UHGV virus genome: UHGV-0081093
From: a virus
Reading direction: 5' to 3' (one strand)
DNA: 38,153 bases
The position numbers were made by a program, and so were the translations under genes. Shown here piece after piece: positions 1 to 27,959 of the stretch. Within the stretch, counting starts at the first letter, position 1. Each line of letters starts with the position of its first letter. The notes beneath the pieces were generated by a model, which saw nothing but the letters and a program-made list of their open reading frames with translations, did not search any database and was not told the DNA's origin.

Positions 1-49
1 TTAGCAAGACTGTGTACATTTGTACACAATTGCAGAGAGAGGAAATGAC

Positions 50-586
50 ATGCGTCGCGCTAACGATCCGCAACGGCGAGAAAAAATTATCCAGGCCACG
101 CTGGAGGCGGTGAAACTTTACGGAATACATGCTGTTACACACCGCAAAATTGCTACCCTTGCCGGGGTGCCGTTGGGATCGATGACCTACTATTTTTCAG
201 GAATTGATGAGTTGTTGCTGGAGGCGTTCAGCCGTTTTACTGAGATCATGTCCCGGCAATATCAGGCATTTTTTAGCGATGTTAGTGATGCTCCAGGCGC
301 ATGCCAGGCTATCACCGATATGATCTACAGCTCACAGGTCGCAACGCCGGATAATATGGAGCTGATGTACCAGCTCTACGCGCTGGCTAGCCGAAAACCG
401 CTCTTAAAAACGGTAATGCAAAACTGGATGCAGCGCAGTCAACAAACGCTCGAACAATGGTTTGAACCCGGAACCGCCCGCGCGCTTGATGCGTTTATTG
501 AGGGAATGACGCTGCATTTTGTCACCGACCGTAAGCCGCTATCACGCGAGGAGATTTTGAGGATGGTTGAGAGGATTGCTGGGTAG
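50..586 (+). CDS. rcdA: TetR-family transcriptional regulator RcdA (YbjK)
   Basis: Translation from [35 protein letters not shown] matches my memory of E. coli RcdA, with an N-terminal TetR-type HTH. ATG at 50 is preceded by a GAGAGAGGAAA RBS; the track ORF from 20 is an upstream in-frame extension. Confidence 0.85.
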
Positions 587-1064: not shown

Positions 1065-2096
1065 TCAAAAACTTGCTATTGATGTTGGTAGTGTTGCCAG
1101 CGGATTAAACCGTAATGCAGTTTCCAGGTGATCCGGTGCCAGATGTGCGTAACGCATAGTCATTTTTATATCGTGATGCCCGAGAATTTTTTGTAAGGCC
1201 AGGATATTTCCACCCGACATCATGAAGTGCGCCGCAAACGTATGGCGCAGAACGTGTGTCAGTTGACCGCGAGGGAGCACGATAGACGTTTTTTCCATCA
1301 CGGATAAAAATTGAAAATAGCAGTCTGTAAAGAAATTGAACCCATCAAGCGCCATGATCTCTTCGTAAAGCTCTTTACTGATAGGGATGCTTCTGTTTTT
1401 CTTCCCCTTCGTTCTTACAAAGGTAATTCGGTATTTGGTCACCTGTGAGCGGGTAAGATTTACGGCTTCACGCCAACGTGCGCCTGTGCTTAAGCATATC
1501 TTAACTACCAGTGCCAGAATTGGGTCCTGACGTTTGCAATCAGCCAGCAATTCAACAATCTGCTCATGGGTAAGCCATGCCATCTCTTTTTCTGCGATGG
1601 TGAATTTTCGCATGTTCTCCAGTGGGTTTGGATACGACCATTCGCCCAGGCGGGATAGTTCGCTAAAAACACTACTTAGATAGCTTTGCTCCAGGTTAAT
1701 GGTGACCGGGCTGGCTCCTTTCTTCCATTTCTCGCTGAAGTAGATCTCACCTGTCAGGCGTTTATCTCGATAGTGGGCAAACATTTTAGAGGTGAGATTG
1801 GTTGCAAGAGGATTGCCTAGAGCGTCAACCATCAGCAGCAATTTGTCATAGACATGCTGCCCAGCAGTCAGAGATTTACCATGTAATTTGAACCATAGCT
1901 CAACCACGTCTTTCAGGGTTCGACGATCCACTGATTCGCCCAGCCAGGGCTTTGATTCGGTTTCTTCCATCGTGTGACGCTCAAAAGCCAGAGCTTCGCC
2001 TTTGGTGGCGAATTGTTTACGCACACGACGCCCACTTCTTCCGGCGGGGTAACATTCGCAAAGCCATTTCCCTGTGGTGAGTTTTCGTACTGCCAT
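1065..2096 (-). CDS. int: Phage tyrosine integrase (186/P2-type)
   Basis: C-terminal catalytic region LSTGARWREA ... HVLRHTFAAHFMMSGGNILALQKILGHHDIKMTMRYAHL carries the R...HxxR...Y tyrosine-recombinase signature. Start taken at MAVRKLTTGKW (ATG 2096..2094), which matches remembered P2/186 Int N-termini; the track ORF extends further upstream to 2252. Confidence 0.88.
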   Translation of the reverse strand: MAVRKLTTGKWLCECYPAGRSGRRVRKQFATKGEALAFERHTMEETESKPWLGESVDRRTLKDVVELWFKLHGKSLTAGQHVYDKLLLMVDALGNPLATNLTSKMFAHYRDKRLTGEIYFSEKWKKGASPVTINLEQSYLSSVFSELSRLGEWSYPNPLENMRKFTIAEKEMAWLTHEQIVELLADCKRQDPILALVVKICLSTGARWREAVNLTRSQVTKYRITFVRTKGKKNRSIPISKELYEEIMALDGFNFFTDCYFQFLSVMEKTSIVLPRGQLTHVLRHTFAAHFMMSGGNILALQKILGHHDIKMTMRYAHLAPDHLETALRFNPLATLPTSIASF

Positions 2097-2284
2097 AAAA
2101 AATGCCCTCCAGTAGAGAGCATTTTTACTGTATGTATAACCAGTGTCAATGTATGAAATCCTACGACCATACATCTCACTGAAGCCATAATGAAGTTGGC
2201 TATTCTTTTTGCTATGTGAGCATGTAACTTTTGCGGTTAACCTGCGGCTCATTTTTATTTTAGACGCAGATATAAAAGCAAAAG

Positions 2285-2491: not shown

Positions 2492-3148
2492 CTATTTAAC
2501 ATACTTGACTGTTAAACTTATAATTTTACCAATTATTTCAATGTCTTCTATCTTGCATTCGAAGGCTCTGTTTCCACCCTCGACGAAGATTCTTCCACCG
2601 GGTAAACGAGTAATGTCACGGATCGTTATTTCGCCATCAATACTTATTACCCATTTACCATCACGTATATCATCAAATTCTTTATCACAAATAAATTCAG
2701 AATTGTTATCTGTGATGACAAAAGGTTTTTTAAACGTAGAGGGTAGAAATCCCTTATCAAAAATATAAAAACCGTCTTTCTGCAATGCTCCATCAGACAA
2801 TAAATATTTTTCTACTTCTATAGTATTTGTATTTGCTGATGCTTGCTTTGAACCATGCCCTGTTGTTAGCCAATTAAGCGAGGTGCCCGTTTCAAGGGCG
2901 CACTGGATTACCCAATCTGCTGGAAAAATATCACGCATATAGCGCGTTGCCATGGTGCTCTTAGAAACACCTAAATGATCACAGAGAGCCTGACGGGTAC
3001 CGAACCCATATGCTTCAACTAAACGTTCTATGGCTTTCTTACCGCCGCTATTGAAATCCACAAGTCCTCCAAAGAAATCCGAAATTCGTTGACAGATTCC
3101 AAAAGCGATCTTAAAGTTGAACCAGAAGTGTTCTTTTGGAGCCTTCAC
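2492..3148 (-). CDS. Immunity repressor, 186 CI-like (HTH N-domain plus C-terminal domain)
   Basis: Divergent from the apl/cII-like genes and adjacent to int. Internal HTH-like segment LGVSKSTMATRYMRD...ALETGTSLNWLTTG. No obvious S24 autocleavage motif. True start may be the internal GTG near 3085 (GGAGGA RBS just upstream), which would give about 197 aa. Confidence 0.7.
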   Translation of the reverse strand: MKAPKEHFWFNFKIAFGICQRISDFFGGLVDFNSGGKKAIERLVEAYGFGTRQALCDHLGVSKSTMATRYMRDIFPADWVIQCALETGTSLNWLTTGHGSKQASANTNTIEVEKYLLSDGALQKDGFYIFDKGFLPSTFKKPFVITDNNSEFICDKEFDDIRDGKWVISIDGEITIRDITRLPGGRIFVEGGNRAFECKIEDIEIIGKIISLTVKYVK

Positions 3149-5048: not shown

Positions 5049-5275
5049 TGGCTGATGCAATGGATCTCGTACAGCAGCGCGTTGAAGAAGAACGCCAGCG
5101 CCATATCCGTGCTGCCCGTGCCAAAACACCGGGCGTGTCTCGCGTGCTTTGCATTGAATGTGAAGCACCAATTCCGCCAGCACGCCGCCGTGCCATTCCT
5201 GGAGTGCAGCTTTGCATTACCTGTCAGGAAATCGCAGAGCTGAAAGGCAAACATTACAACGGAGGTGCTGTATGA
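5048..5275 (+). CDS. TraR/DksA-family C4 zinc-finger protein
   Basis: CIECEAPIP...LCITCQ four-cysteine motif in a 75-aa protein, typical of phage TraR-like proteins. Confidence 0.7.
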   Translation: MADAMDLVQQRVEEERQRHIRAARAKTPGVSRVLCIECEAPIPPARRRAIPGVQLCITCQEIAELKGKHYNGGAV

Positions 5276-6129
5276 GCACCATCCTGAAATGGGCGGGAAA
5301 TAAAACCGCAATTATGTCCGAACTGAAAAAATACCTACCTGCTGGCCCGCGACTGGTTGAACCTTTCGCGGGTTCCTGTGCTGTGATGATGGAGACGGAT
5401 TACCCCAGCTATCTGGTTGCGGATATTAATCCTGATTTAATCAACCTCTATAAAAAGATTGCCGCTGATTGCGAGGCGTTTATATCGCGGACCAGAACTT
5501 TGTTTGAGGAAGCAAACAGTGACCTAGCTTATTACAACATAAGGCAGGAGTTTAATTACTCAACTGAAATTACTGATTTCATGAAAGCGATATATTTCCT
5601 GTATCTCAATCGTCATGGTTACCGTGGGTTATGTCGCTATAACAAGAGCGGGCATTTCAACATTCCCTACGGTAATTATAAAAATCCGTATTTCCCTGAA
5701 AAAGAAATTCGCGCATTTGCAGAAAAAGCCCAGCGGGCAACGTTTATCTGCGCCAGCTTTGATGAAACGCTGGCGATGTTGAAGGCGGGGGATGTGGTGT
5801 ATTGCGATCCGCCGTATGACGGCACGTTTTCCGGTTATCACACTGACGGCTTCACTGAAGATGACCAGTATCACCTGGCATCCGTTCTTGAATATCGATC
5901 ATCAGAAGGTCATCCGGTCATTGTTTCTAACAGTGACACATCCCTGATCCGTTCGCTGTATCGCAATTTCACTCACCACTACATCAAGGCAAAACGCAGC
6001 ATCGGCGTGTCAGCTGGCGAGAGTAAATCTGCAACAGAAATCATTGCTGTTTCCGGGTCGCGCTGCTGGATGGGATTTGATCCTTCGCGTGGCGTGGATA
6101 GTTCTGCTGTGTACGAGGTGCGTGTATGA
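5272..6129 (+). CDS. dam: DNA adenine methyltransferase (Dam-like, N6-A MTase)
   Basis: N-terminal SAM-binding region (KWAGNK...EPFAGSCAV) and catalytic DPPY motif. ATG 5272 with GGAGGTG RBS; the track ORF from 5212 is an upstream extension. Confidence 0.85.
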
Positions 6130-8540
6130 GTCATGACGATATGAGCAACTCTAGCGGCTTTAACGAGGCTGCCGCAGCATTTTCATGGAACGGCCCGAAA
6201 AAGGCCATTAACCCTTATCTGGATCCGGCGGAAGTTGCGCCGGAGTCTGCACTTTCAAACCTGATCACTCTGTACGCTGCCGATAACGAGCAGGAACAAC
6301 TGCGCCGCGAGGCACTGAGTGAGCAGGTCTGGGAGCGTTATTTCTTTAATGAATCCCGTGATCCTGTCCAGCGCGAAATGGAGCAGGATAAGCTCATTAG
6401 CCGGGCAAAGCTGGCGCATGAGCAGCAGCGTTTTAACCCGGACATGGTCATTCTGGCAGATGTCAGCGCCCAGCCTTCTCATATCAGCAAGCCGCTGATG
6501 CAACGTATCGAATACTTCAGCAGCCTGGGCAGGCCAAAGGCTTATTCCCGCTATTTGCGTGAGACGATTAAGCCATGTCTGGAGCGACTGGATTGTGTAC
6601 GTGACAGTCAGCTATCTGTTTCTTTCCGTTTTATGGCAAGCCATCAAGGGCTGGAGGGGCTGCTGATCCTGCCTGAAATGAGCCAGGATCAGGTGAAACG
6701 CCTGTCCACCCTGGTAGCAGCGCATATGAGCATGTGTCTTGAGGCCGCTTGTGGTGATTTGTACGCCACCGATGACGTTAAGCCAGAAGAAATCCGCAAG
6801 ACATGGGAAAAGGTGGCTGCGGAAACCCTGCGTCTGGATGTTATCCCGCCTGCGTTTGAGAAACTTCGTCGGAAAAGAAACCGCCGCAAACCTGTGCCCT
6901 ATGAACTCATACCGGGTTCGCTGGCACGTATGCTTTGCGCCGACTGGTGGTATCGAAAATTGTGGAAGATGCGTTGCGAATGGCGGGAAGAGCAGTTGCG
7001 TGCTGTCTGTCTGGTCAGCAAAAAAGCATCTCCCTATGTCAGCTATGAAGCAGTGACGCATAAACGTGAGCAGCGCCGCAAGTCGCTGGAGTTTTTCCGT
7101 TCTCATGAACTGGTGAACGAAGACGGAGACACGCTGGATATGGAAGATGTGGTAAACGCCAGCAGCAGCAACCCGGCACATCGCCGCAATGAGATGATGG
7201 CCTGCGTTAAAGGTCTGGAGCTTATCGCGGAAATGCGCGGTGACTGCGCCGTTTTCTACACCATCACCTGTCCGTCACGTTTCCATTCCACGCTCAATAA
7301 CGGCAGACCAAACCCGACCTGGACAAATGCGACGGTAAGACAAAGCAGTGATTATCTGGTCGGCATGTTTGCTGCATTTCGTAAGGCGATGCACAAAGCC
7401 GGATTGCGGTGGTATGGCGTGCGGGTGGCTGAGCCGCATCATGACGGTACTGTGCACTGGCATCTCATGTGCTTCATGCGTAAAAAAGACCGCCGCGCCA
7501 TCACTGCATTACTGCGTAAGTTTGCCATCCGTGAAGACCGCGAGGAACTGGGCAATAACACGGGGCCACGCTTTAAGTCTGAGCTGATTAACCCGCGCAA
7601 AGGAACGCCGACAAGCTACATCGCGAAATACATCAGTAAGAACATTGACGGGCGTGGTCTGGCTGGCGAGATCAGCAAGGAAACGGGTAAATCCCTGCGT
7701 GATAACGCTGAATACGTTAATGCCTGGGCGTCTCTGCATCGTGTTCAGCAATTCCGCTTCTTTGGCATTCCGGGGCGTCAGGCTTACCGTGAACTGCGAT
7801 TGCTGGCTGGTCAGGCGGCAAGGCAGCAGGGTGACAAAAAAGCAGGTGCGCCGGTACTGGATGATCCGCGTCTTGATGCCATTCTGGCTGCTGCTGATGC
7901 TGGCTGTTTTGCCACCTACATTATGAAGCAGGGCGGCGTGTTGGTTCCCCGCAAATATCACTTGATCAGAACCGCTTATGAAATCAACGAAGAGCCGACC
8001 GCCTATGGTGATCACGGTATTCGTATTTATGGCATCTGGTCACCCATTGCAGAGGGCAAGATCTGCACTCATGCAGTGAAGTGGAAAATGGTTCGTAAGG
8101 CCGTTGACGTTCAGGAGGCGGCAGCCGACCAGGGCGCTTGCGCCCCTTGGACTCGTGGCAATAACTGTCCCCTTGCTGAAAATTTGTACCAACAAGGGAA
8201 AGACAAATCAGCTGATGGGGATACCAGAACGGATATCACCCGCATGGATGACAAGGAATTGCACGATTACCTGCACAGTATGAACAAAAAAGAGCGTCGG
8301 GAACTGGCTGCAAGGTTACGCCTGGTGAAACCGAAACGGCGTAGAGACTACAAACAGCGAATTACAGATCATCAGCGACAGCAGCTCGTCTATGAACTGA
8401 AGTCCAGAGGATTTGATGGCAGCGAGAAAGAGGTCGATTTACTCCTTCGCGGCGGCAGCATTCCGTCAGGAGCAGGCCTGCGTATTTTCTATCGGAACCA
8501 GCGTTTGCAGGAAGATGATAAGTGGCGGAACCTGTATTAA
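6126..8540 (+). CDS. A: Replication initiation endonuclease (P2 gpA / 186 RepA family, rolling-circle)
   Basis: 804 aa, in the position of P2 gene A; contains a VHWHLMCF HxH-type motif typical of rolling-circle initiators. Confidence 0.85.
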
Positions 8541-8632
8541 TTACGCGGGTTAACAATTCGTGCTCTTAATAATACCAGGTATATCAGGCTGATGAACGTA
8601 AAAAAACGTTTTACATCAGTAAGATTATTATA

Positions 8633-8652
8633 TACTGTAAATATAAACAGTG
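8633..8652. promoter_or_regulatory. LexA (SOS) box TACTGTAAATATAAACAGTG
   Basis: Matches the CTGT-N8-ACAG consensus with an AT-rich spacer; sits 40 bp upstream of the 8694 ORF and the DinI-like gene. Confidence 0.6.
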
Positions 8653-8693
8653 GTTATGCATACAGTATTGCTTGTGGTGTCATAGGAGGAAAG

Positions 8694-8882
8694 ATGCAGG
8701 ACTATTTTTTGGAGTCTTTGAAGCTCCAGCGCATTGATTTTTTTCTTAAGCTTGTAGCGGCTAGTGAGTGTAGTGATGAAGAGAAGGGGCTGGCCCTGCA
8801 GTGGGTTTCTGAACTGACAGATGAACTCATGGCAAAAATCAGAACCCACGAATACAACCGCTCAATGGATGTCATCAGCTGA
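8694..8882 (+). CDS. Hypothetical small protein, first gene of putative SOS-controlled operon
   Basis: ATG 8694 preceded by an AGGAGG RBS and lying downstream of the LexA box. The longer track ORF from 8592 would contain the LexA box. Confidence 0.45.
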   Translation: MQDYFLESLKLQRIDFFLKLVAASECSDEEKGLALQWVSELTDELMAKIRTHEYNRSMDVIS

Positions 8883-8892
8883 GGTGACTTTT

Positions 8893-9126
8893 ATGCGCAT
8901 TGAAATAATGATCGATAAAGAGCAGAAGATTAGCCAGTCTACCCTGGACGCCCTTGAATCCGAGCTTTACCGCAATCTGCGCCCCCTGTATCCCAAAACG
9001 GTAATTCGCATTCGCAAAGGTAGCTCTAACGGTGTGGAACTGACCGGACTGCAACTGGACGAAGAAAGGAAGCAAGTGATGAAAATTATGCAGAAGGTGT
9101 GGGAAGACGACAGCTGGCTGCATTAA
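8893..9126 (+). CDS. DinI-like protein (possible Tum-type antirepressor)
   Basis: MRIEIMIDKEQ...LYRNLRPLYPKTVIRIRKGSSNGVELTGLQLDEERKQVMKIMQKVWEDDSWL resembles DinI (MRIEVTIAK..., ...ETWESADDW). GAGGTG RBS before ATG 8893. Confidence 0.65.
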   Translation: MRIEIMIDKEQKISQSTLDALESELYRNLRPLYPKTVIRIRKGSSNGVELTGLQLDEERKQVMKIMQKVWEDDSWLH

Positions 9127-9413: not shown

Positions 9414-10991
9414 ATGGATATCAACTATGTTGTTTCAAAAATGGAGTTCGTAGATGATCTTATTAATGCAGGTTCATTTGATTCTGCCTATAAAAATGTA
9501 AAGGATATTCTTAACGGTATCGATGAGATAAATACAATCAAAGAAAATAGAATAATTATATTATCTAATTTGGCCGGAAATCTTATTGATATCGGAAGTT
9601 TTAGTAATGTAAAAAATATAGCGGAGGAAGGCTTAAATATCTTTATAAACAATAAAAATGAATTTCTGACTATAATGAAAGAATCCTTATATTACTATAA
9701 CTTGGCAAATGGAATGAGCGCAGTTCTTGATTTTAATCCTAATGACAATGCAGATATTGATAGTTTCATTAAGCTGAATGATGTAAAAAATAATTACTGG
9801 AAAGCGTTTAAACTTTCACAAGAAGATGGATGGGTGCCCCCTGATTTAATAGTTAATCTAGCTAATGTATTAAAAAAACAATATCGTATATCTGAATCAA
9901 TGGATTATTATGAACAAGCAATATCTATTGATAACTCAATTCCTCAGGCATGGGTAAACAGATCTGAGGCATTAGAATTGCTTAATGAATTATCTACAAC
10001 ATATACATATAAAATGATTAAAGAAGTTATTCGAGGTTATGAGTGTGCAATAAAGTCAGGGAAATGTTTTCCTTCATGGAAGGTTGCTCTTCAAAGAAAA
10101 ATAAAGTACAACGAAAGTATATTGAGTGAATCATGTGTATATGGCATAGAGGATATAAGTACAGATGAAAGGCTCACGCAGGAGGAGTATGATACTTTAT
10201 CAAACTACCAGAGGTTTTGTATAGATAATAATCTAATGTTGTCTGATCATTCGCTATATTGCAATTGTTATGCGTCATCTAAAGATAATATAACTATTGC
10301 TACCACCGAGGAAGGTGTGTTTGGTGATTTTATAGTGCCAATGGAAATGGTGTTAAATAGACTTAAAGCTGAGTATTCCTTAGCACGAAAAATGTTTTTT
10401 GAATATAAGGTTGATAGTGAGTTTTTTGATGAGGATTCGGAGGTATGTTATTCTGAATTGTATAATGGAGAAATATTGTATGAAAATGTTGAGAAGTTAA
10501 GGGTTGCATTTAGAGCTTGCTTTGGTATCTTGGATAAAATAGCAGTTGCTCTGTGTCAATTATTTGATTTAAAACCAGATAGAGGACATATATACTTTCA
10601 TAACTTCTGGCGGATTAGTGATGAAAAAAGAAAGCTTAAAATAAACAAAATAAATAATAAAGGATTGCTGGGTTTGTTTAGTATTGCTATGGATTTGAAT
10701 GATAAAAATGGTGAGCTTGCTTTTTTTAAAGAATGGAGGAATGATTTAGAACATAAACTGTTAGTTATTCACGAGAAAGACATGTTAGTTGATTTATATA
10801 ATTCTTATGGGTTTTTTGATGAGGTGAGGTTTGTTGAGAAAGAAAAGTTTGAGAAACAGCTCTTACAACTCATGAAAATTGTGAGATCAGCCGTTATTCT
10901 TTTTGTGTTTACCATACGTATAGAGGGGAAAAAAAGTATTCCTAAAGATATGTTGACCATTAAAAATACCATCGAGAGAAAAGTATTGTAG
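9414..10991 (+). CDS. AT-rich cargo protein with TPR-like repeats and a C-terminal HEPN-like RNDLEH motif; candidate abortive-infection / defence effector
   Basis: 525-aa ORF in a block of very low GC with N/K/I-rich codon usage, unlike the rest of the prophage; AGAGGA RBS. TPR-like segments (e.g. YYEQAISIDNSIPQAWVNRSEALELL) and RNDLEH (Rx4H) near residue 445. Located between gene A and the cos-like site. Confidence 0.7.
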   Translation: MDINYVVSKMEFVDDLINAGSFDSAYKNVKDILNGIDEINTIKENRIIILSNLAGNLIDIGSFSNVKNIAEEGLNIFINNKNEFLTIMKESLYYYNLANGMSAVLDFNPNDNADIDSFIKLNDVKNNYWKAFKLSQEDGWVPPDLIVNLANVLKKQYRISESMDYYEQAISIDNSIPQAWVNRSEALELLNELSTTYTYKMIKEVIRGYECAIKSGKCFPSWKVALQRKIKYNESILSESCVYGIEDISTDERLTQEEYDTLSNYQRFCIDNNLMLSDHSLYCNCYASSKDNITIATTEEGVFGDFIVPMEMVLNRLKAEYSLARKMFFEYKVDSEFFDEDSEVCYSELYNGEILYENVEKLRVAFRACFGILDKIAVALCQLFDLKPDRGHIYFHNFWRISDEKRKLKINKINNKGLLGLFSIAMDLNDKNGELAFFKEWRNDLEHKLLVIHEKDMLVDLYNSYGFFDEVRFVEKEKFEKQLLQLMKIVRSAVILFVFTIRIEGKKSIPKDMLTIKNTIERKVL

Positions 10992-11313: not shown

Positions 11314-11332
11314 GGCGTGGCGGGGATACGAG
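11314..11332. other. Putative cos site core (GGCGTGGCGGGGATACGAG)
   Basis: First 13 nt match the cohesive-end sequence of P2/186 as I remember it (GGCG[A/T]GGCGGGGAAAGCA[C/T]). Lies in a 474-bp non-coding gap upstream of the Q-P packaging genes. Confidence 0.4.
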
Positions 11333-11465
11333 CGCGCGCTGTGAGCTTAAAAAGCTAAATTCTAGTTTGCTATGATTCTCAAAAATTGCGTGTTAAGCAA
11401 AATAGCTACGGTTATACTGTGTACAGAAAGAACTATCAAAATTAACAATAAAGGGAGGGGATGAG

Positions 11466-12485
11466 ATGACTGCAACTACACATCAGAAGCCTCTTAATGC
11501 TTTCTTTCGCCGAGTAGGGGCGCTTGATAGGCGTTTAGCCGAAGGGCTATCAAAGTTACTTCCTGATTGGTGGGATGATTCGCTTAATCATTCAGCGAGC
11601 ATTAGCCAGCAGGTAATTTTAGGTTTGGCAAAGTTTGCGAATCTGGATTTGGCGACGGTCGTCAATCCTACTGCTGAATTGAGATTCAATGAGTCAGTAA
11701 GAAAGTATAAACACGCGGCAAATAAATCGGTCGAAGAGTTGCAGGCTGCTACGGCTGTGGTTGATGGTATGGCAAAAATCGCAGCTTCAGTTGCTAAAAG
11801 ACCATATATGGGGCTTTCATCTGCTCGTGATATACGTGAGATAATCCTTTCTCAAGGAAAGCCTTGGGTAGATTTCCTGTCACTCTTAGAATTTGCTTGG
11901 TCTGCGGGTATCCCTGTTTTGTATATGACGGATATTCCTGCCAGGAAAAAGATGGATGCAGTTGCTATAAAGGTTTCTGATCGCCCAGTTATTGCTCTTA
12001 CAAAAAAACATAAACATGCAAGTGGTATTTTGTTTAGTTTGGCGCACGAGTTAGGGCATATCGCTTGCGGCCATCTTGAGGATAACTCATTGTTAATTGA
12101 TGAAAAAATCAATGAAGATGATGTCGAAAATCCTCAAGAAATAGAAGCCAATGCTTACGCAATAGAACTCCTTAATGGCAGACCAGATGCTGCATTCCAT
12201 AGCAATGGTTGGATTTCTGCTGAAGTGCTGGCTTCGGAAGCTTTGCGTATAGGGCGTCACAATAAGGTTGATCCTGGCCACGTAGCTTTAAATTACGCCA
12301 AAACAATGGGGCGTACGCATACAGGGAATTTTTTCCCTGTATGCGGAAGTGCATTAAACATACTTTATCCTCGTTTGGATTGGATGGAGCATGCTGCCGC
12401 AATTTTTCTTGAATATGTTGATGAAGAGAAGGTATCGGAAGACAAGTTTGAAATGTTATGCAGAATGAACAACATTGAGGTGTAA
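11466..12485 (+). CDS. Metallopeptidase-domain protein (HEXXH; ImmA/IrrE / M78-like), gene 1 of cargo operon
   Basis: 339 aa with AGGGAGGGG RBS. Contains LAHELGHIACGHLED, i.e. an HEXXH zinc-peptidase motif in a context typical of ImmA/IrrE-type domains. Confidence 0.7.
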   Translation: MTATTHQKPLNAFFRRVGALDRRLAEGLSKLLPDWWDDSLNHSASISQQVILGLAKFANLDLATVVNPTAELRFNESVRKYKHAANKSVEELQAATAVVDGMAKIAASVAKRPYMGLSSARDIREIILSQGKPWVDFLSLLEFAWSAGIPVLYMTDIPARKKMDAVAIKVSDRPVIALTKKHKHASGILFSLAHELGHIACGHLEDNSLLIDEKINEDDVENPQEIEANAYAIELLNGRPDAAFHSNGWISAEVLASEALRIGRHNKVDPGHVALNYAKTMGRTHTGNFFPVCGSALNILYPRLDWMEHAAAIFLEYVDEEKVSEDKFEMLCRMNNIEV

Positions 12486-12490
12486 CGCCA

Positions 12491-13129
12491 GTGGCTGTAT
12501 TACTTGATAATGATGTAGTACTGAAATTGGCTCAACTTGATCTGCTTGCTGATGGTTGCAAATTACTTACAAGTAAGTACGGCCAACTTTATGTTTTAGA
12601 TACGCTTTTTTATCAGTTACGAGGTAAGTCAGCTCTTCGTCGTTATGGTGCTGAGGCATTGGAACGCGTACAGCAATGCCTGTCAGAGAGGGCATTTTTG
12701 CCGTTTGAAGAGTTAATCACGGATCAACGTTTGATTGAATTACAGAACAATTTCGAGAATCTTGATGAAGGCGAGATGCGTTTGCTTCAAGGTTTAATAA
12801 ATAATCATGATCTGCTTCTATCAGGCGATAAACGCTTTTTGAAGGCAATTGCTGAGACTGGATTTATAGAGGAAGCATCTCTCAATAATCGTTTTGTATG
12901 TTTAGAACAAGTGGTTTGTTTTCTTATCAATGAGTTATCTCTTGATCATGTCAACGCAAAAGCCTCGATTGCTTTTCAGGGTGAATGTAGAGTTGATAGT
13001 GCTTTAAGAACATGTATTGGTTACGGGCGTACGCATGAGCACGTTATGGAAGGGATATTTCACCAACTTCGTGGGCTACCTGAAACTCTTCTATCAATAG
13101 AGGTGCATTGGAGTTTGACTCAACCTTAA
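12491..13129 (+). CDS. Hypothetical protein, gene 2 of cargo operon (possible PIN-like nuclease domain)
   Basis: GTG start 5 nt after the gene-1 stop. N-terminus VAVLLDNDVVLKLAQLDLL resembles the first strand/Asp of PIN domains, with further acidic positions (NLDEGE, SGDKRF) at spacings compatible with a PIN fold. Inference only. Confidence 0.6.
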   Translation: MAVLLDNDVVLKLAQLDLLADGCKLLTSKYGQLYVLDTLFYQLRGKSALRRYGAEALERVQQCLSERAFLPFEELITDQRLIELQNNFENLDEGEMRLLQGLINNHDLLLSGDKRFLKAIAETGFIEEASLNNRFVCLEQVVCFLINELSLDHVNAKASIAFQGECRVDSALRTCIGYGRTHEHVMEGIFHQLRGLPETLLSIEVHWSLTQP

Positions 13130-13184
13130 CTATATGCAAAGAACAAGAGTTTAGGGCGCATGCTAATGCGCCCTTTTGCTATAT

Positions 13185-14222
13185 TTAATCTGCACCTAAG
13201 GTATAAATCTCAAAGCTGATCACTTCCTCTCCCAGCCAGTCATTTAGCTCTTCTAGGCGCTTCTGCAGCGGCATCAGCTCGTTGCGAACAAAGACTCGGC
13301 TGGCTTTCTCCACATCCCCAAACCCCCCGACATTATTCGGCATAATCCCCATCATCTGCGGCGGCACTCGGTGTGCTGCCATCATGTCGTCCCGGCTCAC
13401 GTTCTTGATATTCAGAAACTCATCCTTCGCCGCAACTTCTGACAAAGGGATGATCTGAAGGCCGTCCTTTTTGCCGTTAGGCGAGTACATAAACAGGTTG
13501 CGGAAGTTGCCTGGACCTTTGGCGCTTTTCATCGCGTTGCGGAGGTTGTTCACATCCTCCTGATTCTGCGCGGCGTCGGTCATGTACATGATGAAGCCTG
13601 CATGGCTGCCGTTGATGTAATACTTACGGCGGAACAGCGTGGCGGACTCGTTGAGTAGGGCGGATGGAATGGCAGAAAGATAGCCGGGCAGGCCGTAGAT
13701 CTCCTGGTTGATGTCCGGTTCCATCAGATGAAAAATGCTGCCTTTCGTGAACTGATACGGCTGGGTTGTCATACCGTATTGCACAAACCAGTAGGTATCC
13801 AGGTCTAATCCGCGTCGGGTGTATTTTGCCAGAGTAGGCTCAAGGGCTATAACTTCACCGAATCGGTTCGTGCGTTTCTCTAGGTAGGCGTTACCAAATA
13901 CCAGATAGTCTTGCACAAAACGCGAAAAAGCCTGCTGGCTGAGCAGCGGATGAGGGATATAGGTACTGGTCAGAATGTTGCACTTTACTGCAATCGGGGA
14001 ACTGTGATGCACGGCGGCGCGGAAGGTGCGCGCCAGTCCGTCAAAGCTGACGGGCGGCTCATACCAACGGTCCATCTGTACGCATTCCACATAGTCCAGT
14101 AATTCTCGGCGGTCCAGAACAGGAACGGGATCGCCGAAGCTGAATGCTTCGGCTGAAGTCTGGCTTTTATGCTGGATGTGATTCATCGCCGCAGCGCGGT
14201 TTTTCTTACTCTTTCCCATCAA
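13185..14222 (-). CDS. Q: Portal protein (P2 gpQ-like)
   Basis: 345 aa, first gene after the cos-like site, overlapping the terminase gene by ATGA, as in P2. Confidence 0.8.
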   Translation of the reverse strand: MMGKSKKNRAAAMNHIQHKSQTSAEAFSFGDPVPVLDRRELLDYVECVQMDRWYEPPVSFDGLARTFRAAVHHSSPIAVKCNILTSTYIPHPLLSQQAFSRFVQDYLVFGNAYLEKRTNRFGEVIALEPTLAKYTRRGLDLDTYWFVQYGMTTQPYQFTKGSIFHLMEPDINQEIYGLPGYLSAIPSALLNESATLFRRKYYINGSHAGFIMYMTDAAQNQEDVNNLRNAMKSAKGPGNFRNLFMYSPNGKKDGLQIIPLSEVAAKDEFLNIKNVSRDDMMAAHRVPPQMMGIMPNNVGGFGDVEKASRVFVRNELMPLQKRLEELNDWLGEEVISFEIYTLGAD

Positions 14223-25826: not shown

Positions 25827-26270
25827 ATGAATCAATATATTTATTCCCCTTCGGAAAATGCATTTTATGCTGTTAATTTAAAAAATACTTATGAAGTAAA
25901 TGGAACATGGCCCGCTGACGCATTAGATATTCCTGATGACATTTCTGTAAAATATATGGCGGAACCGCCACAAGGGAAAATCCGAGTTGCAGGGGAAAAT
26001 GGTTTTCCCACATGGGCTGAAATACCTCCACCATCACATGAGGAACTTATTGAACAGGCCGAATCAGAGAGGCAATTATTGATTAACCATGCCAACGAAT
26101 ACATGAACAGTAGGCAATGGTCTGGTAAAGCAGCTATTGGTCGCCTGAAGGGGGACGAGCTGGCGCAATATAATTTGTGGCTGGATTATCTGGACGCACT
26201 GGAACTGGTCGATACTTCCGGGGCGCCAGATATTGAATGGCCTACGCCTCCGGCAGTTCAGGCCAGATGA
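25827..26270 (+). CDS. G: Tail fibre assembly protein (gpG/Tfa-like), current orientation
   Basis: 147 aa; C-terminal ...DYLDALELVDTSGAPDIEWPTPP Tfa signature. Confidence 0.75.
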   Translation: MNQYIYSPSENAFYAVNLKNTYEVNGTWPADALDIPDDISVKYMAEPPQGKIRVAGENGFPTWAEIPPPSHEELIEQAESERQLLINHANEYMNSRQWSGKAAIGRLKGDELAQYNLWLDYLDALELVDTSGAPDIEWPTPPAVQAR

Positions 26271-26844
26271 CATCCGGCGCTGTGCTGGTATTTGTTGCCG
26301 TCACCGCGTCAATGTAATCCAGCACAGCGTTAAGCCGGGTTGTTTCTGCCTGCATCAACTTCCGTCCGGCCTGTAATTTCAGCTGAATCAGACTGATGGA
26401 AGCCATTGCAGCATCAATCAGTGACTGACGCTGTGCTTCTGCCGCGTCTACTGCGGCGCTATGCTGTGCCTCAGTATCGGTCACCCATTTCTCACCATCC
26501 CATTTATCGTATGGCGTTAATGGGGCGATAGTGGTTGTATTTTCGGGGTAATCACCCGGTGCTGTGATTTCTTTGGCATCTCCCGTTTCGGTGTTATAGA
26601 CGATTTCACCGCGATGGTCTGGCACATATTCCCATGAATTAAAATCTACAGAACGGCAAATTGTATAACCAGCCTTATATGTACCAGGAGCGTCTAAACA
26701 GGAATATGCTGGAATACCGACACCCACTGCAAGATATTCAGTTGATGCAGAAATATATTCCCGAGTTTCACCATCGTAGTTATAAACGGTAATATTCCCC
26801 GCCTTCGTGGCAATAAACTCGCTATTTAATACTGCGTTATCCAT
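26242..26844 (-). CDS. Alternative tail fibre assembly protein (G'), inverted
   Basis: 200 aa on the opposite strand; C-terminal ...DYIDAVTATNTSTAPDVIWPELP Tfa signature. Confidence 0.7.
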   Translation of the reverse strand: MDNAVLNSEFIATKAGNITVYNYDGETREYISASTEYLAVGVGIPAYSCLDAPGTYKAGYTICRSVDFNSWEYVPDHRGEIVYNTETGDAKEITAPGDYPENTTTIAPLTPYDKWDGEKWVTDTEAQHSAAVDAAEAQRQSLIDAAMASISLIQLKLQAGRKLMQAETTRLNAVLDYIDAVTATNTSTAPDVIWPELPEA

Positions 26845-27365
26845 TATGCAGCCCTCACGATAAAGTTAAATGCAATATTTCGTGGACGGGTCTCACTCCC
26901 ACCAGTATTACCGATACTCCCTCGTGAATGAAGTGTCGGTGATGGGATCAGACTCCCTCCTGTATTTGTGGCATCAAGTCCCCGTCCTTGTGTGTATGTT
27001 TTTTTGAAAATCGTAGCCAGTTCCCATTCATCTTTTGTGTCGTAACCATCATTGGCAACAACAATATGGCGGTGTTTTTCCAGCATCCCAGCCTGAAGGC
27101 TCAATAAAGCACGTCCAGCATCAATACCACGCCCGTCATCCCAGCCACGAATAAACTCACCACGTAAATCTGGCAATTTATTTGTCGGGTAAGCCTTTGC
27201 CAGTTCCGGGTATTCTTCAGCAGAAAAAGCTGCTCCGTTGCATTTCAGCCAGCCTGTTGGCGGAGTGGCTGAAGGCCACGGAACAGGGACACCAACAGGT
27301 AATGCAGAGCCTTCTCCCAAACCAACGTTTAAGAAAATGCAGCGATTACGACTAACTGGCATCAT
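26844..27365 (-). CDS. Alternative tail fibre variable C-terminal segment (H'), inverted and currently unfused
   Basis: Opposite-strand ORF whose 5' end contains the ...NVGLGEG... crossover junction homologous to H ...YLGLGEA...; inversion would fuse it to the constant part of H. Confidence 0.6.
   Translation of the reverse strand: MMPVSRNRCIFLNVGLGEGSALPVGVPVPWPSATPPTGWLKCNGAAFSAEEYPELAKAYPTNKLPDLRGEFIRGWDDGRGIDAGRALLSLQAGMLEKHRHIVVANDGYDTKDEWELATIFKKTYTQGRGLDATNTGGSLIPSPTLHSRGSIGNTGGSETRPRNIAFNFIVRAA
27312..27337. other. Invertase crossover site (right), 26 bp TTCTCCCAAACCAACGTTTAAGAAAA
   Basis: Inverted copy of the core of the 25464..25489 site, just upstream of the invertase gene. Confidence 0.55.
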
Positions 27366-27392
27366 CCCCGGTTTTTATTCAGGGGATTGATC

Positions 27393-27959
27393 ATGCTTAT
27401 TGGCTATGTACGCGTGTCAACAAATGACCAGAACACCGATTTGCAACGTAATGCACTGAACTGCGCGGGATGTGAGCGGATTTTTGAGGACAAAATCAGT
27501 GGCACTAAGTCCGACAGACCGGGGCTTAAAAAACTGCTCAGGACACTATCGGCAGGTGACACACTGGTTGTCTGGAAGCTGGACAGGTTGGGGCGCAGTA
27601 TGCGGCATCTTGTTACGCTGATAGAAGAGTTGCGCCAGCGCGGCGTGAATTTCCGAAGCCTGACTGACAGTATTGATACCAGTACCCCAATGGGCCGTTT
27701 CTTTTTTCATGTCATGGGTGCCCTGGCTGAAATGGAACGCGAACTGATAGTTGAACGTACCAGGGCAGGGCTGGCTGCAGCTCGTGCTAAAGGCAGAGTA
27801 GGTGGACGCCGTCCTAAGTTGACTACCGAACAGTGGGCACAGATTGGGCGTTTACTCGAGGCCGGAGAATCAAGACAGCGTATTGCACTGATTTTTGATG
27901 TAGGCGTTTCTACCATTTATAGAAAATTTCCGGCAAATAAGAGCAATGAATCTCCCTGA
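27393..27959 (+). CDS. Serine site-specific DNA invertase (Gin/Pin/Hin family)
   Basis: MLIGYVRVSTNDQNTDLQRNAL...VVWKLDRLGRSM...GRFFFHVMGALAEMERELI... is near-identical in its motifs to Mu Gin as I recall it; catalytic Ser in YVRVST. ATG 27393 with AGGGGA RBS. Confidence 0.9.
   Translation: MLIGYVRVSTNDQNTDLQRNALNCAGCERIFEDKISGTKSDRPGLKKLLRTLSAGDTLVVWKLDRLGRSMRHLVTLIEELRQRGVNFRSLTDSIDTSTPMGRFFFHVMGALAEMERELIVERTRAGLAAARAKGRVGGRRPKLTTEQWAQIGRLLEAGESRQRIALIFDVGVSTIYRKFPANKSNESP

What the first reader, a model, noticed from the sequence alone, without database searches (positions are those of the whole stretch)
11466..13129. Two-gene cargo operon (HEXXH metallopeptidase-domain protein plus PIN-like protein) inserted between cos and the portal gene
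In P2-type genomes as I recall them, the portal gene Q lies directly next to cos, yet here two tightly coupled genes sit between the cos-like site (11314..11332) and Q (5-nt gap, GTG start for gene 2). Gene 1 (339 aa) carries LAHELGHIACGH, an HEXXH zinc-peptidase motif of the ImmA/IrrE (M78) type, but is far larger than a simple ImmA and has no obvious HTH partner. Gene 2 (212 aa) opens with a PIN-like VAVLLDNDVVL strand and has acidic residues at PIN-compatible spacing. A protease-plus-nuclease pair at a position where P2-like phages are known to carry anti-phage systems is a strong candidate for an uncharacterised defence or toxin-antitoxin-like module. I cannot tell from sequence alone whether it matches an already named system.
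Basis: partly seen in the sequence, partly recalled or inferred. Interest (0 to 1): 0.85.

Follow-up and report, generated by a model that had tools for sequence, protein, structure and literature searches.

The report
Zinc-protease plus PIN-nuclease prophage cargo pair
A P2-like prophage of E. coli carries, next to its DNA-packaging site, a tightly linked pair of genes (a zinc protease and a PIN-type nuclease) that looks like an untested toxin-antitoxin-style anti-phage module of a known general kind, and belongs to a large, widespread gene-pair family that no database yet names.

Summary
Two coupled ORFs (11466..12485, 339 aa; 12491..13129, 212 aa, GTG start, 5-nt gap) lie between a P2/186-type cos 19-mer (11314..11332) and portal gene Q.

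Gene 1 is an M78 (ImmA/IrrE) zinc peptidase. It passes the Pfam threshold, HExxH plus E225 are invariant in 60 homologues, and its closest solved fold is CapP. It has no HTH.

Gene 2 matches no sequence model. Its AlphaFold model (pLDDT 91.7) is a VapC-like PIN fold, and D6, D8, D113, E139 and D169 are invariant.

The slot is the published P2 defence hotspot. Rousset et al. 2022 list this exact pair in Table S5, and no M78 entry appears in their table of tested systems.

The pair is a strict unit. It was adjacent in every locus examined, across at least seven phyla. The two proteins co-diverge (r = 0.92) under purifying selection. The PIN family has about 1,460 clusters at 50% identity and no Pfam model.

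Many distant relatives add a small Xre HTH, a P4 cII-like protein and a beta-like protein (PD-lambda-2_C).

Best reading: a Rosmer-like toxin-antitoxin or abortive-infection module, so a new HTH-less variant of a known kind. Function is inferred, not shown.

The parts
11314..11332 (+). P2/186-type cos-like 19-mer (GGCGTGGCGGGGATACGAG). It marks the packaging site and the left border of the cargo slot.
   Evidence: Read directly. The same 19-mer, with 0-1 mismatch, lies 130-150 bp upstream of the M78 gene in 8 other P2-like loci. The flanking ~45-58 nt matches 1,231 E. coli genomes and P2-like phages.
11389..11418 (+). Probable operon promoter. It has a conserved CGTGTnAAG block (11389..11397, with a -35-like GTGTTA at 11390..11395) and a conserved GTTATACT (11411..11418, with -10 TATACT at 11413..11418, 17-nt spacer).
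   Evidence: These two blocks are invariant in an alignment of five upstream regions whose neighbouring bases have diverged. The assignment is inferred from conservation only. The generic scan picked a different, non-conserved site at 11347..11376 and found no excess of promoter-like sites over shuffles.
11453..11460 (+). Shine-Dalgarno sequence (GGGAGGGG) of gene 1.
   Evidence: Read directly. GGAGGG is conserved in the alignment.
11466..12485 (+). Gene 1: a 339-aa HTH-less M78 (ImmA/IrrE-type) zinc metallopeptidase. It has a helical N-terminal domain (~1-110, conserved LPDWW motif), an M78 core (~120-240) and a helical C-terminal domain (~250-339).
12045..12059 (+). HExxH zinc-binding and catalytic motif (H194 E195 L G H198). 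The probable third ligand E225 is at 12138..12140.
   Evidence: H194, E195, H198 and E225 are invariant in 60 homologues at 26-89% identity.
12477..12482 (+). Shine-Dalgarno sequence (GAGGTG) of gene 2. It lies inside the end of gene 1, 8 nt before the GTG start.
   Evidence: Read directly. In relatives the two genes are separated by -4 to +14 nt, which suggests translational coupling.
12491..13129 (+). Gene 2: a 212-aa PIN-like nuclease (PIN core ~1-140 plus a helical C-terminal extension ~140-212). Its family is uncharacterised and has no Pfam, NCBIfam or PADLOC model.
12506..12514 (+). Codons D6-N7-D8 at the C-terminal end of strand beta1, the position of the first PIN acidic residue. Other invariant or near-invariant residues are D92 (12764..12766), E95 (12773..12775), S/T-G-D113-K (D113 at 12827..12829), E139 (12905..12907) and D169 (12995..12997).
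   Evidence: D6, D8, G94, G112, D113, K114, E139 and D169 are invariant in 52 representatives at 20-41% identity, and D92 and E95 are present in at least 90%. The same holds in 41 sequences that include relatives from other phyla.
13153..13174 (+). Intrinsic terminator hairpin (9-bp stem with 6 G-C pairs, then TTTGCTATAT) between gene 2 and the convergent portal gene.

Best explanation
The pair is an accessory, prophage-expressed two-gene module of the toxin-antitoxin or abortive-infection type, related to RosmerTA and PD-lambda-2.

Gene 2 is the effector. It is a metal-dependent PIN-like nuclease, most likely an RNase like VapC, whose unrestrained activity stops the cell. Gene 1 is a catalytically competent M78 zinc protease made in fixed proportion from the same transcript. 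It forms the control element. In uninfected lysogens it keeps the PIN protein harmless, either by binding it or by continuously cleaving it. Infection by another phage disturbs this control, the nuclease is released, and the infection aborts. This protects the lysogen population and the resident P2-like prophage.

Shown here: both folds, conservation of both active sites, the operon structure with its own conserved promoter and terminator, strict co-occurrence and co-divergence of the two genes, and residence in a validated defence hotspot and next to defence genes elsewhere.

Inferred: toxicity of the PIN protein, which partner neutralises which, the substrate of the protease, the trigger, and anti-phage activity.
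For: Folds and active sites:
- The M78 fold is supported, with the HExxH...E site invariant.
- The PIN fold is supported, with its acidic constellation invariant.

Operon structure:
- The gap is 5 nt here and -4 to +14 nt in relatives.
- Conserved -35/-10 blocks are and the terminator.

The pair behaves as a unit:
- A PIN homologue lies directly downstream of the M78 gene in all loci examined. These are 10 of 11 distant genome loci plus one degenerate copy, the Vibrio and Proteus loci, 4 of 4 further M78-seeded loci and 3 of 3 PIN-seeded loci.
- Distance matrices correlate at r = 0.92, Mantel 0/2000.
- The two genes have equal pN values and pN is far below pS.

Accessory, mobile, defence-type context:
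- GC is low.
- Only 4 of the 1,231 E. coli genomes that carry this cos have the pair.
- It keeps its place when the upstream cargo differs, IS100 instead of TPR-HEPN.
- The gpA-cos-gpQ gap is the P2 defence hotspot (PMC9122126), and the pair is listed there.
- A second lineage at 32-36% identity fills the same gap in Pectobacterium and Pantoea P2-like prophages.
- In Vibrio it sits beside Wadjet JetC/JetD and beta/cII homologues.
- In Proteus it sits in a siphophage moron region.

Relatedness to validated systems:
- Gene 1 hits RmrA at 7.5e-11, PD-Lambda-2_B at 1.8e-10 and capP at 3.3e-7.
- Distant loci carry PD-Lambda-2_C-like (8e-26) and P4 cII-like (4e-26) genes next to the pair.
- In Millman et al., the Zn-peptidase protein is the antitoxin and a delta-rmrA mutant could not be obtained.
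- DUF955 plus PIN was predicted as a TA type in PMC5499597, and NetFlax links the ImmA node to PIN toxins.
Against: - No experiment exists on this pair. No M78 entry appears in Rousset et al. Table S2, their table of tested systems.
- The polarity of control is uncertain. In PD-lambda-2 the peptidase protein itself is the toxic component and the HigB-like protein rescues it.
- Characterised M78 proteases (ImmA, IrrE, CapP) cleave an HTH repressor, and this locus has none. The protease substrate here is therefore unknown.
- Gene 1 matches RmrA models only over the peptidase core, and gene 2 matches no RmrT model.
- No complex model could be computed.
- No sequenced isolated phage carries the pair, so expression and benefit in the lysogen are assumed from its position.
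Confidence: 0.55

Rival explanations
1. The roles are reversed or reciprocal, as in PD-lambda-2. The M78 protease is the growth-arresting effector, cleaving an essential host protein during infection as Lit cleaves EF-Tu. The PIN-like protein is its neutraliser, regulator or co-effector.
For: PD-lambda-2B (Xre-M78) is toxic alone and is rescued by the 'toxin-like' A component (PMC9519451). Gene 1 hits PD-Lambda-2_B at 1.8e-10. The protease active site is invariant, so catalysis is selected for. There is a weak profile similarity to Lit (hhalign probability 59%, E 9e-5, covering HExxH and the ExEA motif). Precomputed Peptidase_U49 hits exist on some homologues.
Against: The PIN protein also keeps a complete, invariant catalytic constellation, which a mere neutraliser would not need. 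Protease-first gene order fits antitoxin-first TA operons. The Lit similarity is below a confident level, and BLASTP finds nothing.
Confidence: 0.15
2. The pair is an addiction (post-segregational killing) module that only stabilises the prophage or island that carries it. It has no role against other phages.
For: The TA-like architecture and strict pairing. The pair occurs on small plasmids and in chromosomal sites with no visible phage or defence context, such as Gallaecimonas.
Against: It sits in a slot where every characterised occupant is anti-phage. It recurs beside Wadjet, beta/cII and Mrr-type genes. Integrated P2-like prophages are stable without addiction modules (general knowledge).
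Confidence: 0.15
3. Gene 1 is a CapP/ImmA-type signal-activated regulatory protease. Its target is a repressor encoded elsewhere, for example the prophage CI (2492..3148) or a host regulator. The PIN protein is a co-regulated accessory rather than a restrained toxin.
For: CapP is the closest solved structure. Many distant relatives have a small Xre-type HTH gene overlapping the start of the M78 gene, exactly like capH-capP or immR-immA.
Against: The window and all P2-like, Proteus and several chromosomal versions lack that HTH yet keep the M78-PIN pair intact. The conserved partner of the protease is the PIN protein. The pair is absent from nearly all related prophages (4 of 1,231), so it is not part of prophage regulation.
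Confidence: 0.1
4. The pair is a counter-defence or host-takeover function used by the phage during its own lytic growth.
For: The position beside cos means early availability after injection. Proteases and nucleases can be anti-defence tools.
Against: The pair has its own sigma-70-like conserved promoter and runs opposite to the late genes. It occurs widely outside phages, in at least seven phyla. It is associated with defence genes rather than anti-defence genes.
Confidence: 0.05

Closest known systems
RosmerTA (RmrT/RmrA; Millman et al. 2022; NetFlax ImmA node D25, Ernits et al. 2023)
   Same: Both are two-gene operons with an M78/ImmA-type zinc peptidase protein paired with a toxin. Both are carried by phages and defence islands. 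Gene 1 hits 12 RmrA models, the best at 7.5e-11. NetFlax explicitly notes ImmA-node pairing with PIN-like toxins.
   Different: RmrA carries an N-terminal Xre HTH, and this family has none in 60 of 60 members. The match covers only the peptidase core, positions 158-251 of 380. Gene 2 hits no RmrT model. Rosmer antitoxins swap toxins freely, whereas this M78 family co-diverges with a single PIN family (r = 0.92).
Predicted three-component HTH / DUF955 protease / PIN-like TA systems (Matelska, Steczkiewicz and Ginalski 2017: DUF4411, COG2405, PIN_14, PIN_20, PIN_26)
   Same: The architecture is the same, with a DUF955 (M78) gene upstream of a PIN-like gene. Distant relatives of this pair have the separate HTH as well. 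The description of PIN_14 ('bacteria, toxins with HTH and DUF955') fits.
   Different: The window version has no HTH component. Gene 2 does not match DUF4411 or any Pfam PIN model. Identity with PIN_14 could not be tested because the supplement is not held. That class is itself only predicted and has not been characterised.
PD-lambda-2 (Vassallo et al. 2022)
   Same: Gene 1 hits PD-Lambda-2_B at 1.8e-10. In distant loci the pair is flanked by a beta-like protein that hits PD-Lambda-2_C at 8e-26. PD-lambda-2 is a validated abortive-infection defence found in E. coli mobile elements.
   Different: PD-lambda-2 uses a HigB-like partner instead of PIN, has the HTH fused to the peptidase, and needs the beta-like C component for defence. 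The window has neither HTH nor C.
CapP (with CapH), ImmA (with ImmR), IrrE/PprI (with DdrO)
   Different: Those proteases act on an adjacent HTH repressor and regulate transcription (of CBASS, ICEBs1, or the radiation response). Here there is no HTH gene and no CBASS. The flanking N- and C-terminal helical domains have no match in the PDB.
VapC-type PIN toxins (VapBC)
   Different: There is no detectable sequence similarity. Gene 2 has an extra ~70-residue helical C-terminal extension with invariant D169. Its partner is a 339-aa protease rather than a small VapB antitoxin.
P4 gop-beta-cII and the P2 old/tin cargo (cos-adjacent hotspots; Rousset et al. 2022)
   Same: [quoted passage not shown] Homologues of cII (4e-26) and beta accompany the pair in at least 7 distant loci.
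   Different: The window has no gop, beta or cII. P4 gop is a 133-aa protein unrelated to either gene.
Lit (e14 prophage cell-death peptidase, Peptidase_U49)
   Same: Both are prophage-encoded HExxH metalloproteases acting in phage exclusion. A remote profile match covers HExxH and the ExEA(N/D) segment.
   Different: The match has only 59% probability, and BLASTP finds nothing. Lit works alone, with no PIN partner.

Membership tests
Peptidase_M78 / ImmA-IrrE (PF06114, COG2856, DUF955) | Profile match at or above the curated threshold | tested here: met
   Score is 28.6 bits against a cutoff of 22, E 1.4e-6. All 60 of 60 family members match.
Peptidase_M78 / ImmA-IrrE (PF06114, COG2856, DUF955) | HExxH motif plus a downstream Glu as zinc ligands and catalytic base | tested here: met
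   H194, E195, H198 and E225 are invariant in 60 sequences.
Peptidase_M78 / ImmA-IrrE (PF06114, COG2856, DUF955) | M78 catalytic fold | tested here: met
Peptidase_M78 / ImmA-IrrE (PF06114, COG2856, DUF955) | Proteolytic activity | not testable with these tools
   Needs biochemistry.
RosmerTA | RmrA: Xre-type HTH fused N-terminally to the Zn-peptidase | tested here: not met
RosmerTA | Full-length match to an RmrA model | tested here: not met
   The best hit is 39.6 bits and covers only model positions 158-251 of 380, the peptidase core. The related NCBIfam model spr1629 scores 19.6 bits against a cutoff of 335.
RosmerTA | Partner matches a known RmrT toxin family | tested here: not met
   Gene 2 has no PADLOC hit at E<=1. 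Distant homologues have no hit at E<=0.01.
RosmerTA | Toxin neutralised by the peptidase protein; anti-phage phenotype | not testable with these tools
   Needs expression and plaque assays.
PIN domain-like superfamily (VapC group) | PIN fold (parallel beta-sheet flanked by helices, Rossmann-like) | tested here: met
PIN domain-like superfamily (VapC group) | Three to five conserved acidic residues at the canonical positions, including the T/S-x-D motif | tested here: met
   D6, D8, D113 (within S/T-G-D-K), E139 and D169 are invariant, and D92 and E95 are present in at least 90%.
PIN domain-like superfamily (VapC group) | Match to a Pfam PIN-clan model (PIN, PIN_3, DUF4411, DUF4935/PIN_12 and others) | tested here: not met
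   No hit for the protein itself. No credible hit in 30 close and 52 diverse members; the only traces are PIN_3 at 0.048 and DUF1308 at 0.0082 in single members.
PIN domain-like superfamily (VapC group) | Metal-dependent nuclease activity | not testable with these tools
   Needs biochemistry.
Matelska 2017 cluster PIN_14 (HTH + DUF955 + PIN) | Sequence membership in the cluster | not testable with these tools
   The cluster sequences are in a supplement that is not held. Only the description fits.
PD-lambda-2 | Three components: a HigB-like A, an Xre-M78 B and a beta-like C | tested here: not met
   The window has no A or C. Gene 1 hits the B model over the peptidase core only (38.6 bits). C-like genes occur only next to distant relatives.
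CapH/CapP-type regulatory pair | Adjacent HTH repressor gene that serves as the protease substrate | tested here: not met
   Only 133 bp lie between cos and gene 1, with no ORF there. A separate HTH gene exists only in distant relatives.
P2 cos-proximal defence-hotspot cargo (Rousset et al. 2022) | Located between gpA and gpQ next to cos; variable between related prophages; atypical composition | tested here: met
   gpA is at 6126..8540, cos at 11314, Q at 13185. GC is 39-44% against 52-60%. The pair is in 4 of the 1,231 genomes with this cos. It is listed in their Table S5.

The most novel reading that the evidence does not exclude
The pair may be the minimal core of a large, unnamed defence family: M78 protease plus a dedicated PIN nuclease, often extended by a divergent cII-like (probably PD-(D/E)xK) protein, a small Xre HTH and a beta-like protein. 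That family would tie RosmerTA, PD-lambda-2 and P4 gop-beta-cII into one combinatorial super-family.

In the HTH-less P2 version the protease would act directly on the nuclease, either activating it or continuously inactivating it by cleavage, rather than on a repressor. That control logic has not been described for M78 proteases.
Probability: 0.3. Interest if true: 0.7.

Novelty: new variant of a known kind. Interest (0 to 1): 0.5.

Why it matters
If the pair is an active defence module, it adds a compact two-gene system to the P2 hotspot repertoire. It also gives a name and a function to a PIN-like family of roughly 1,460 clusters (at 50% identity) that current domain and defence databases miss, so it is invisible to the PADLOC 2.0 models tested here.

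Its strict one-protease-one-nuclease pairing and its lack of an HTH make it a clean model for an open question: what do M78 'antitoxin' proteases in Rosmer-type systems actually cleave, and how do they sense infection?

The recurrent linkage to beta-like and cII-like genes suggests that three separately named systems share parts.

Tried and rejected
- **Sequence searches for gene 2.** Pfam, NCBIfam, PADLOC and PDB sequences (single sequence and two profiles) gave nothing. Only structure revealed the PIN fold.
- **DUF4411/DUF4935 membership.** It is not supported by any Pfam hit.
- **Lit/Peptidase_U49 membership.** Precomputed hits prompted the test. hhalign probability is only 59% and BLASTP finds nothing, so it is kept as an analogy only.
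- **P4 gop as a relative of either gene.** Rejected. gop is an unrelated 133-aa protein.
- **The promoter from the generic scan (11347..11376).** It is not conserved, and the scan found no excess over shuffles. It was replaced by the conserved blocks.
- **Isolated-phage carriers.** None was found in 50,697 records, either by megablast (only cos matched) or by tblastn.
- **Literature.** The two WP accessions are absent from main texts. The 2026 P2/P4 hotspot preprint mentions neither M78, Rosmer nor PIN.
- **AFDB Foldseek search.** The library was unavailable.
- **DefenseFinder.** It is not among the tools.
Full report
**1. Observation**

The window is a complete P2/186-like prophage. A host TetR-family gene lies at 20..586. 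The prophage then carries integrase (1065..2252), 186-type CI (2492..3148), Dam methylase (5212..6129) and replication protein gpA (6126..8540). The structural genes follow, and host ybjL/ybjM-like genes lie at the right end.

At the reported coordinates there are two same-strand ORFs. Gene 1 is 11466..12485 (ATG, 339 aa). Gene 2 is 12491..13129 (GTG, 212 aa). They are separated by 5 nt, and each has a good Shine-Dalgarno sequence.

Upstream, the 19-mer GGCGTGGCGGGGATACGAG (11314..11332) is a P2/186-type cos core. Its surroundings are conserved in 1,231 of 5,426 complete E. coli genomes and in P2-like phages of Klebsiella and Salmonella.

Downstream, on the other strand, are the portal (13185..14222, PF04860) and terminase genes. 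A strong hairpin terminator (13153..13174) separates gene 2 from the portal gene.

The cargo is compositionally foreign. The pair has 39-44% GC and the neighbouring 525-aa gene has 28-33%, against 52-60% in the phage core.

**2. What the two proteins are**

Gene 1 passes the Pfam threshold for Peptidase_M78 (28.6 bits against 22).
- In an alignment of 60 homologues at 26-89% identity, H194, E195, H198 and E225 are invariant, as is a conserved N-terminal LPDWW motif (P33, W35 invariant).
- The helical N-terminal (~1-110) and C-terminal (~250-339) domains have no convincing match.
- None of the 60 family members hits any HTH model. This is an HTH-less M78 protease, unlike RmrA, PD-lambda-2B or the NCBIfam spr1629 family, which it resembles only over the peptidase core.

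Gene 2 matches nothing by sequence in Pfam, NCBIfam, PADLOC or the PDB.
- The residues that never vary are the ones a PIN nuclease needs. D6 and D8 sit at the end of beta1. D92 and E95 sit at the start of a helix. D113 lies in an S/T-G-D-K motif after beta4, and E139 lies after beta5. D169 lies in a C-terminal helical extension.
The expected DUF4411 membership is not supported.

**3. The pair is a unit, and a widespread one**

A profile of gene 2 finds 1,464 clusters at 50% identity with E<=1e-3 among 1.84 billion representatives, and 924 with E<=1e-10. Almost all of the 150 listed matches are 200-240 aa, and most match over nearly the whole profile. None of 52 diverse members hits a Pfam PIN model.

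Every locus I could inspect has the M78 gene immediately upstream of the PIN gene:
- 10 of 11 full-length M78 relatives found in the genome collection. These come from Planctomycetota, Sandaracinaceae, Entotheonella, Paraburkholderia, Variovorax (twice), Geothrix, Melioribacter, Lysobacterales and Symbiobacter. The eleventh has a degenerate copy.
- Vibrio aestuarianus and Proteus mirabilis.
- Four further M78-seeded loci.
- Three loci seeded from distant PIN representatives.

Intergenic distances run from -4 to +14 nt. Over 22 pairs the two distance matrices correlate at r = 0.92, with 0 of 2,000 Mantel permutations reaching that value. Non-synonymous divergence is nearly identical for the two genes (for example 0.144 against 0.146), and synonymous sites are saturated.

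Rosmer antitoxins exchange toxins freely (PMC10440598). This protease family, by contrast, keeps a single partner.

**4. Context**

The gap between gpA and gpQ around cos is the P2 defence hotspot of Rousset et al. 2022. Their Table S5 lists this very pair (WP_033817166 + WP_001747379). [quoted passage not shown] No M78 entry was found in their table of tested systems.

The pair is rare. Only 4 of 5,426 complete E. coli genomes carry it. It is independent of its neighbour: strain E1433 has IS100 in place of the TPR-HEPN gene.

Eight of nine IMG/VR contigs with gene 2 are P2-like phages, with the order gpA, cos, M78, PIN, portal. The cos 19-mer lies 130-150 bp upstream of the M78 gene. In these contigs the pair is about as diverged as the portal protein (75-80% against 75-83%). 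This suggests long residence in that slot.

A second lineage, only 32-36% identical, fills the same gap in Pectobacterium and Pantoea P2-like prophages. In Pectobacterium it lies on the gpA side of cos. That points to independent capture.

Elsewhere the pair sits in a moron region of a Proteus siphophage prophage and beside Wadjet genes in Vibrio. No isolated phage in 50,697 records carries it.

An alignment of five upstream regions shows two invariant blocks. CGTGTnAAG lies at 11389..11397 and GTTATACT at 11411..11418. They are spaced as -35 and -10 elements, so the operon probably has its own promoter just inside cos.

**5. Extended relatives**

In at least seven distant loci (L008-L012, L031, L051) a P4 cII-like gene is transcribed divergently from the operon (PADLOC cll 4e-26; tblastn to P4 cII down to 1e-20).

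In L008, L010, L011, L012, L031, L050 and L051, a small (108-146 aa) Xre-type HTH gene lies just upstream of the M78 gene. In several of these (L008, L010, L011, L050, L051) it overlaps the M78 start.

In five of the loci a beta-like gene is adjacent (PF14350; PADLOC PD-Lambda-2_C 8e-26).

The family therefore shares parts with two validated systems. P4 gop-beta-cII protects against lambda and P1. PD-lambda-2 consists of a HigB-like protein, an Xre-M78 protein and a beta-like protein. The window carries only the invariant M78-PIN core.

**6. Mechanism**

The best-supported reading (confidence 0.55) is a Rosmer-like toxin-antitoxin or abortive-infection module. The PIN protein is the nuclease effector, probably an RNase by analogy with VapC. 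The co-translated M78 protease restrains it and acts as the infection-sensitive switch.

Shown here are the folds, the intact active sites, the operon structure, the obligate pairing and the defence-type context. Inferred are the toxicity, the polarity of control, the protease substrate, the trigger and the phenotype.

The main uncertainty is polarity. In PD-lambda-2 the peptidase protein is the toxic one. The characterised M78 proteases (ImmA, IrrE, CapP) cleave an HTH repressor that this locus lacks. The invariant catalytic site shows that proteolysis is selected for. With no HTH substrate here, the PIN protein itself is the most economical candidate substrate, but nothing here tests that.

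The rivals are listed with their refuting experiments: reversed roles, a pure addiction module, a regulatory protease with a remote target, and counter-defence.

**7. Novelty and score**

The kind is known. DUF955 plus PIN was predicted as a TA architecture in 2017. RosmerTA was validated in 2022. NetFlax linked ImmA antitoxins to PIN toxins in 2023. This pair is already catalogued as P2 hotspot cargo.

What is new:
- The protease lacks the HTH that defines RmrA.
- The PIN family has no model in any library tested, despite its size.
- The pairing is monogamous.
- The family is linked to beta-like and cII-like genes.

I rate it a new variant of a known kind, with interest 0.5. It is a well-founded experimental candidate rather than a surprise.

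Noticed in passing
window 9414..10991 (+): A 525-aa, very AT-rich (28-33% GC) gene on the gpA side of cos encodes TPR repeats plus a C-terminal LA2681-like HEPN domain (PF18733, 4e-38). It has no PADLOC system match. It is probably a second, independent single-gene defence candidate in the same hotspot. Rousset et al. Table S5 lists the same arrangement (NZ_QWNX01000302). In strain E1433, IS100 lies at this position.
   Followed up: partly
L008 3938..7598; L010, L009, L011, L012; L031 3960..7639; L051 36..2690; L050 1067..3107: In distant relatives the M78-PIN pair is embedded in a larger conserved cluster. A P4 cII-like gene (sce7726 family, with a D...ExK motif suggesting a PD-(D/E)xK nuclease) is transcribed divergently. 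A small Xre HTH gene lies just upstream of the M78 gene, overlapping its start in several loci. A beta-like gene (PF14350, PD-Lambda-2_C-like) is often present too. This connects RosmerTA, PD-lambda-2 and P4 gop-beta-cII, and I did not find it described in the literature searched.
   Followed up: partly
Rousset et al. 2022 Table S1 (P4 hotspot), NZ_NHZH01000020: [quoted passage not shown] It may be the E. coli version of the extended beta/M78 cluster. The sequences could not be fetched to check for a PIN partner.
   Followed up: no
L048 6804 (Pectobacterium) versus window 11314: In the divergent Pectobacterium lineage the cos-like 19-mer (GGCGAGGCGGGGGAGCAAG, close to my recollection of the P2 cos core) lies between the PIN gene and the portal gene. 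That pair is therefore on the gpA side of cos, whereas in the window's lineage it is on the Q side. Cargo is captured on both sides of cos.
   Followed up: partly
window 26242..27959: A serine invertase/resolvase gene (27387..27959; PF00239 2e-53, plus HTH_7) sits next to oppositely oriented tail-fibre (Collar domain) and tail-fibre-assembly genes (26242..27365). This looks like a Gin/Cin-type invertible host-range segment in this P2-like prophage.
   Followed up: no
L001 (E. coli E1433, NZ_CM180511.1): The E1433 copy of the prophage has an IS100 insertion upstream of cos. The annotation jumps from a truncated GPO scaffold gene straight to tail-assembly genes, so that prophage appears to have lost most of its head and tail genes while keeping the M78-PIN pair intact (99.9% identity).
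   Followed up: no
window 8821..9126 (+) and 8592..8882 (+): Small ORFs lie between gpA and the HEPN gene. They probably include the DinI-like and hypothetical genes annotated at this position in E1433 and in Rousset's arrangement strings. They were not analysed.
   Followed up: no
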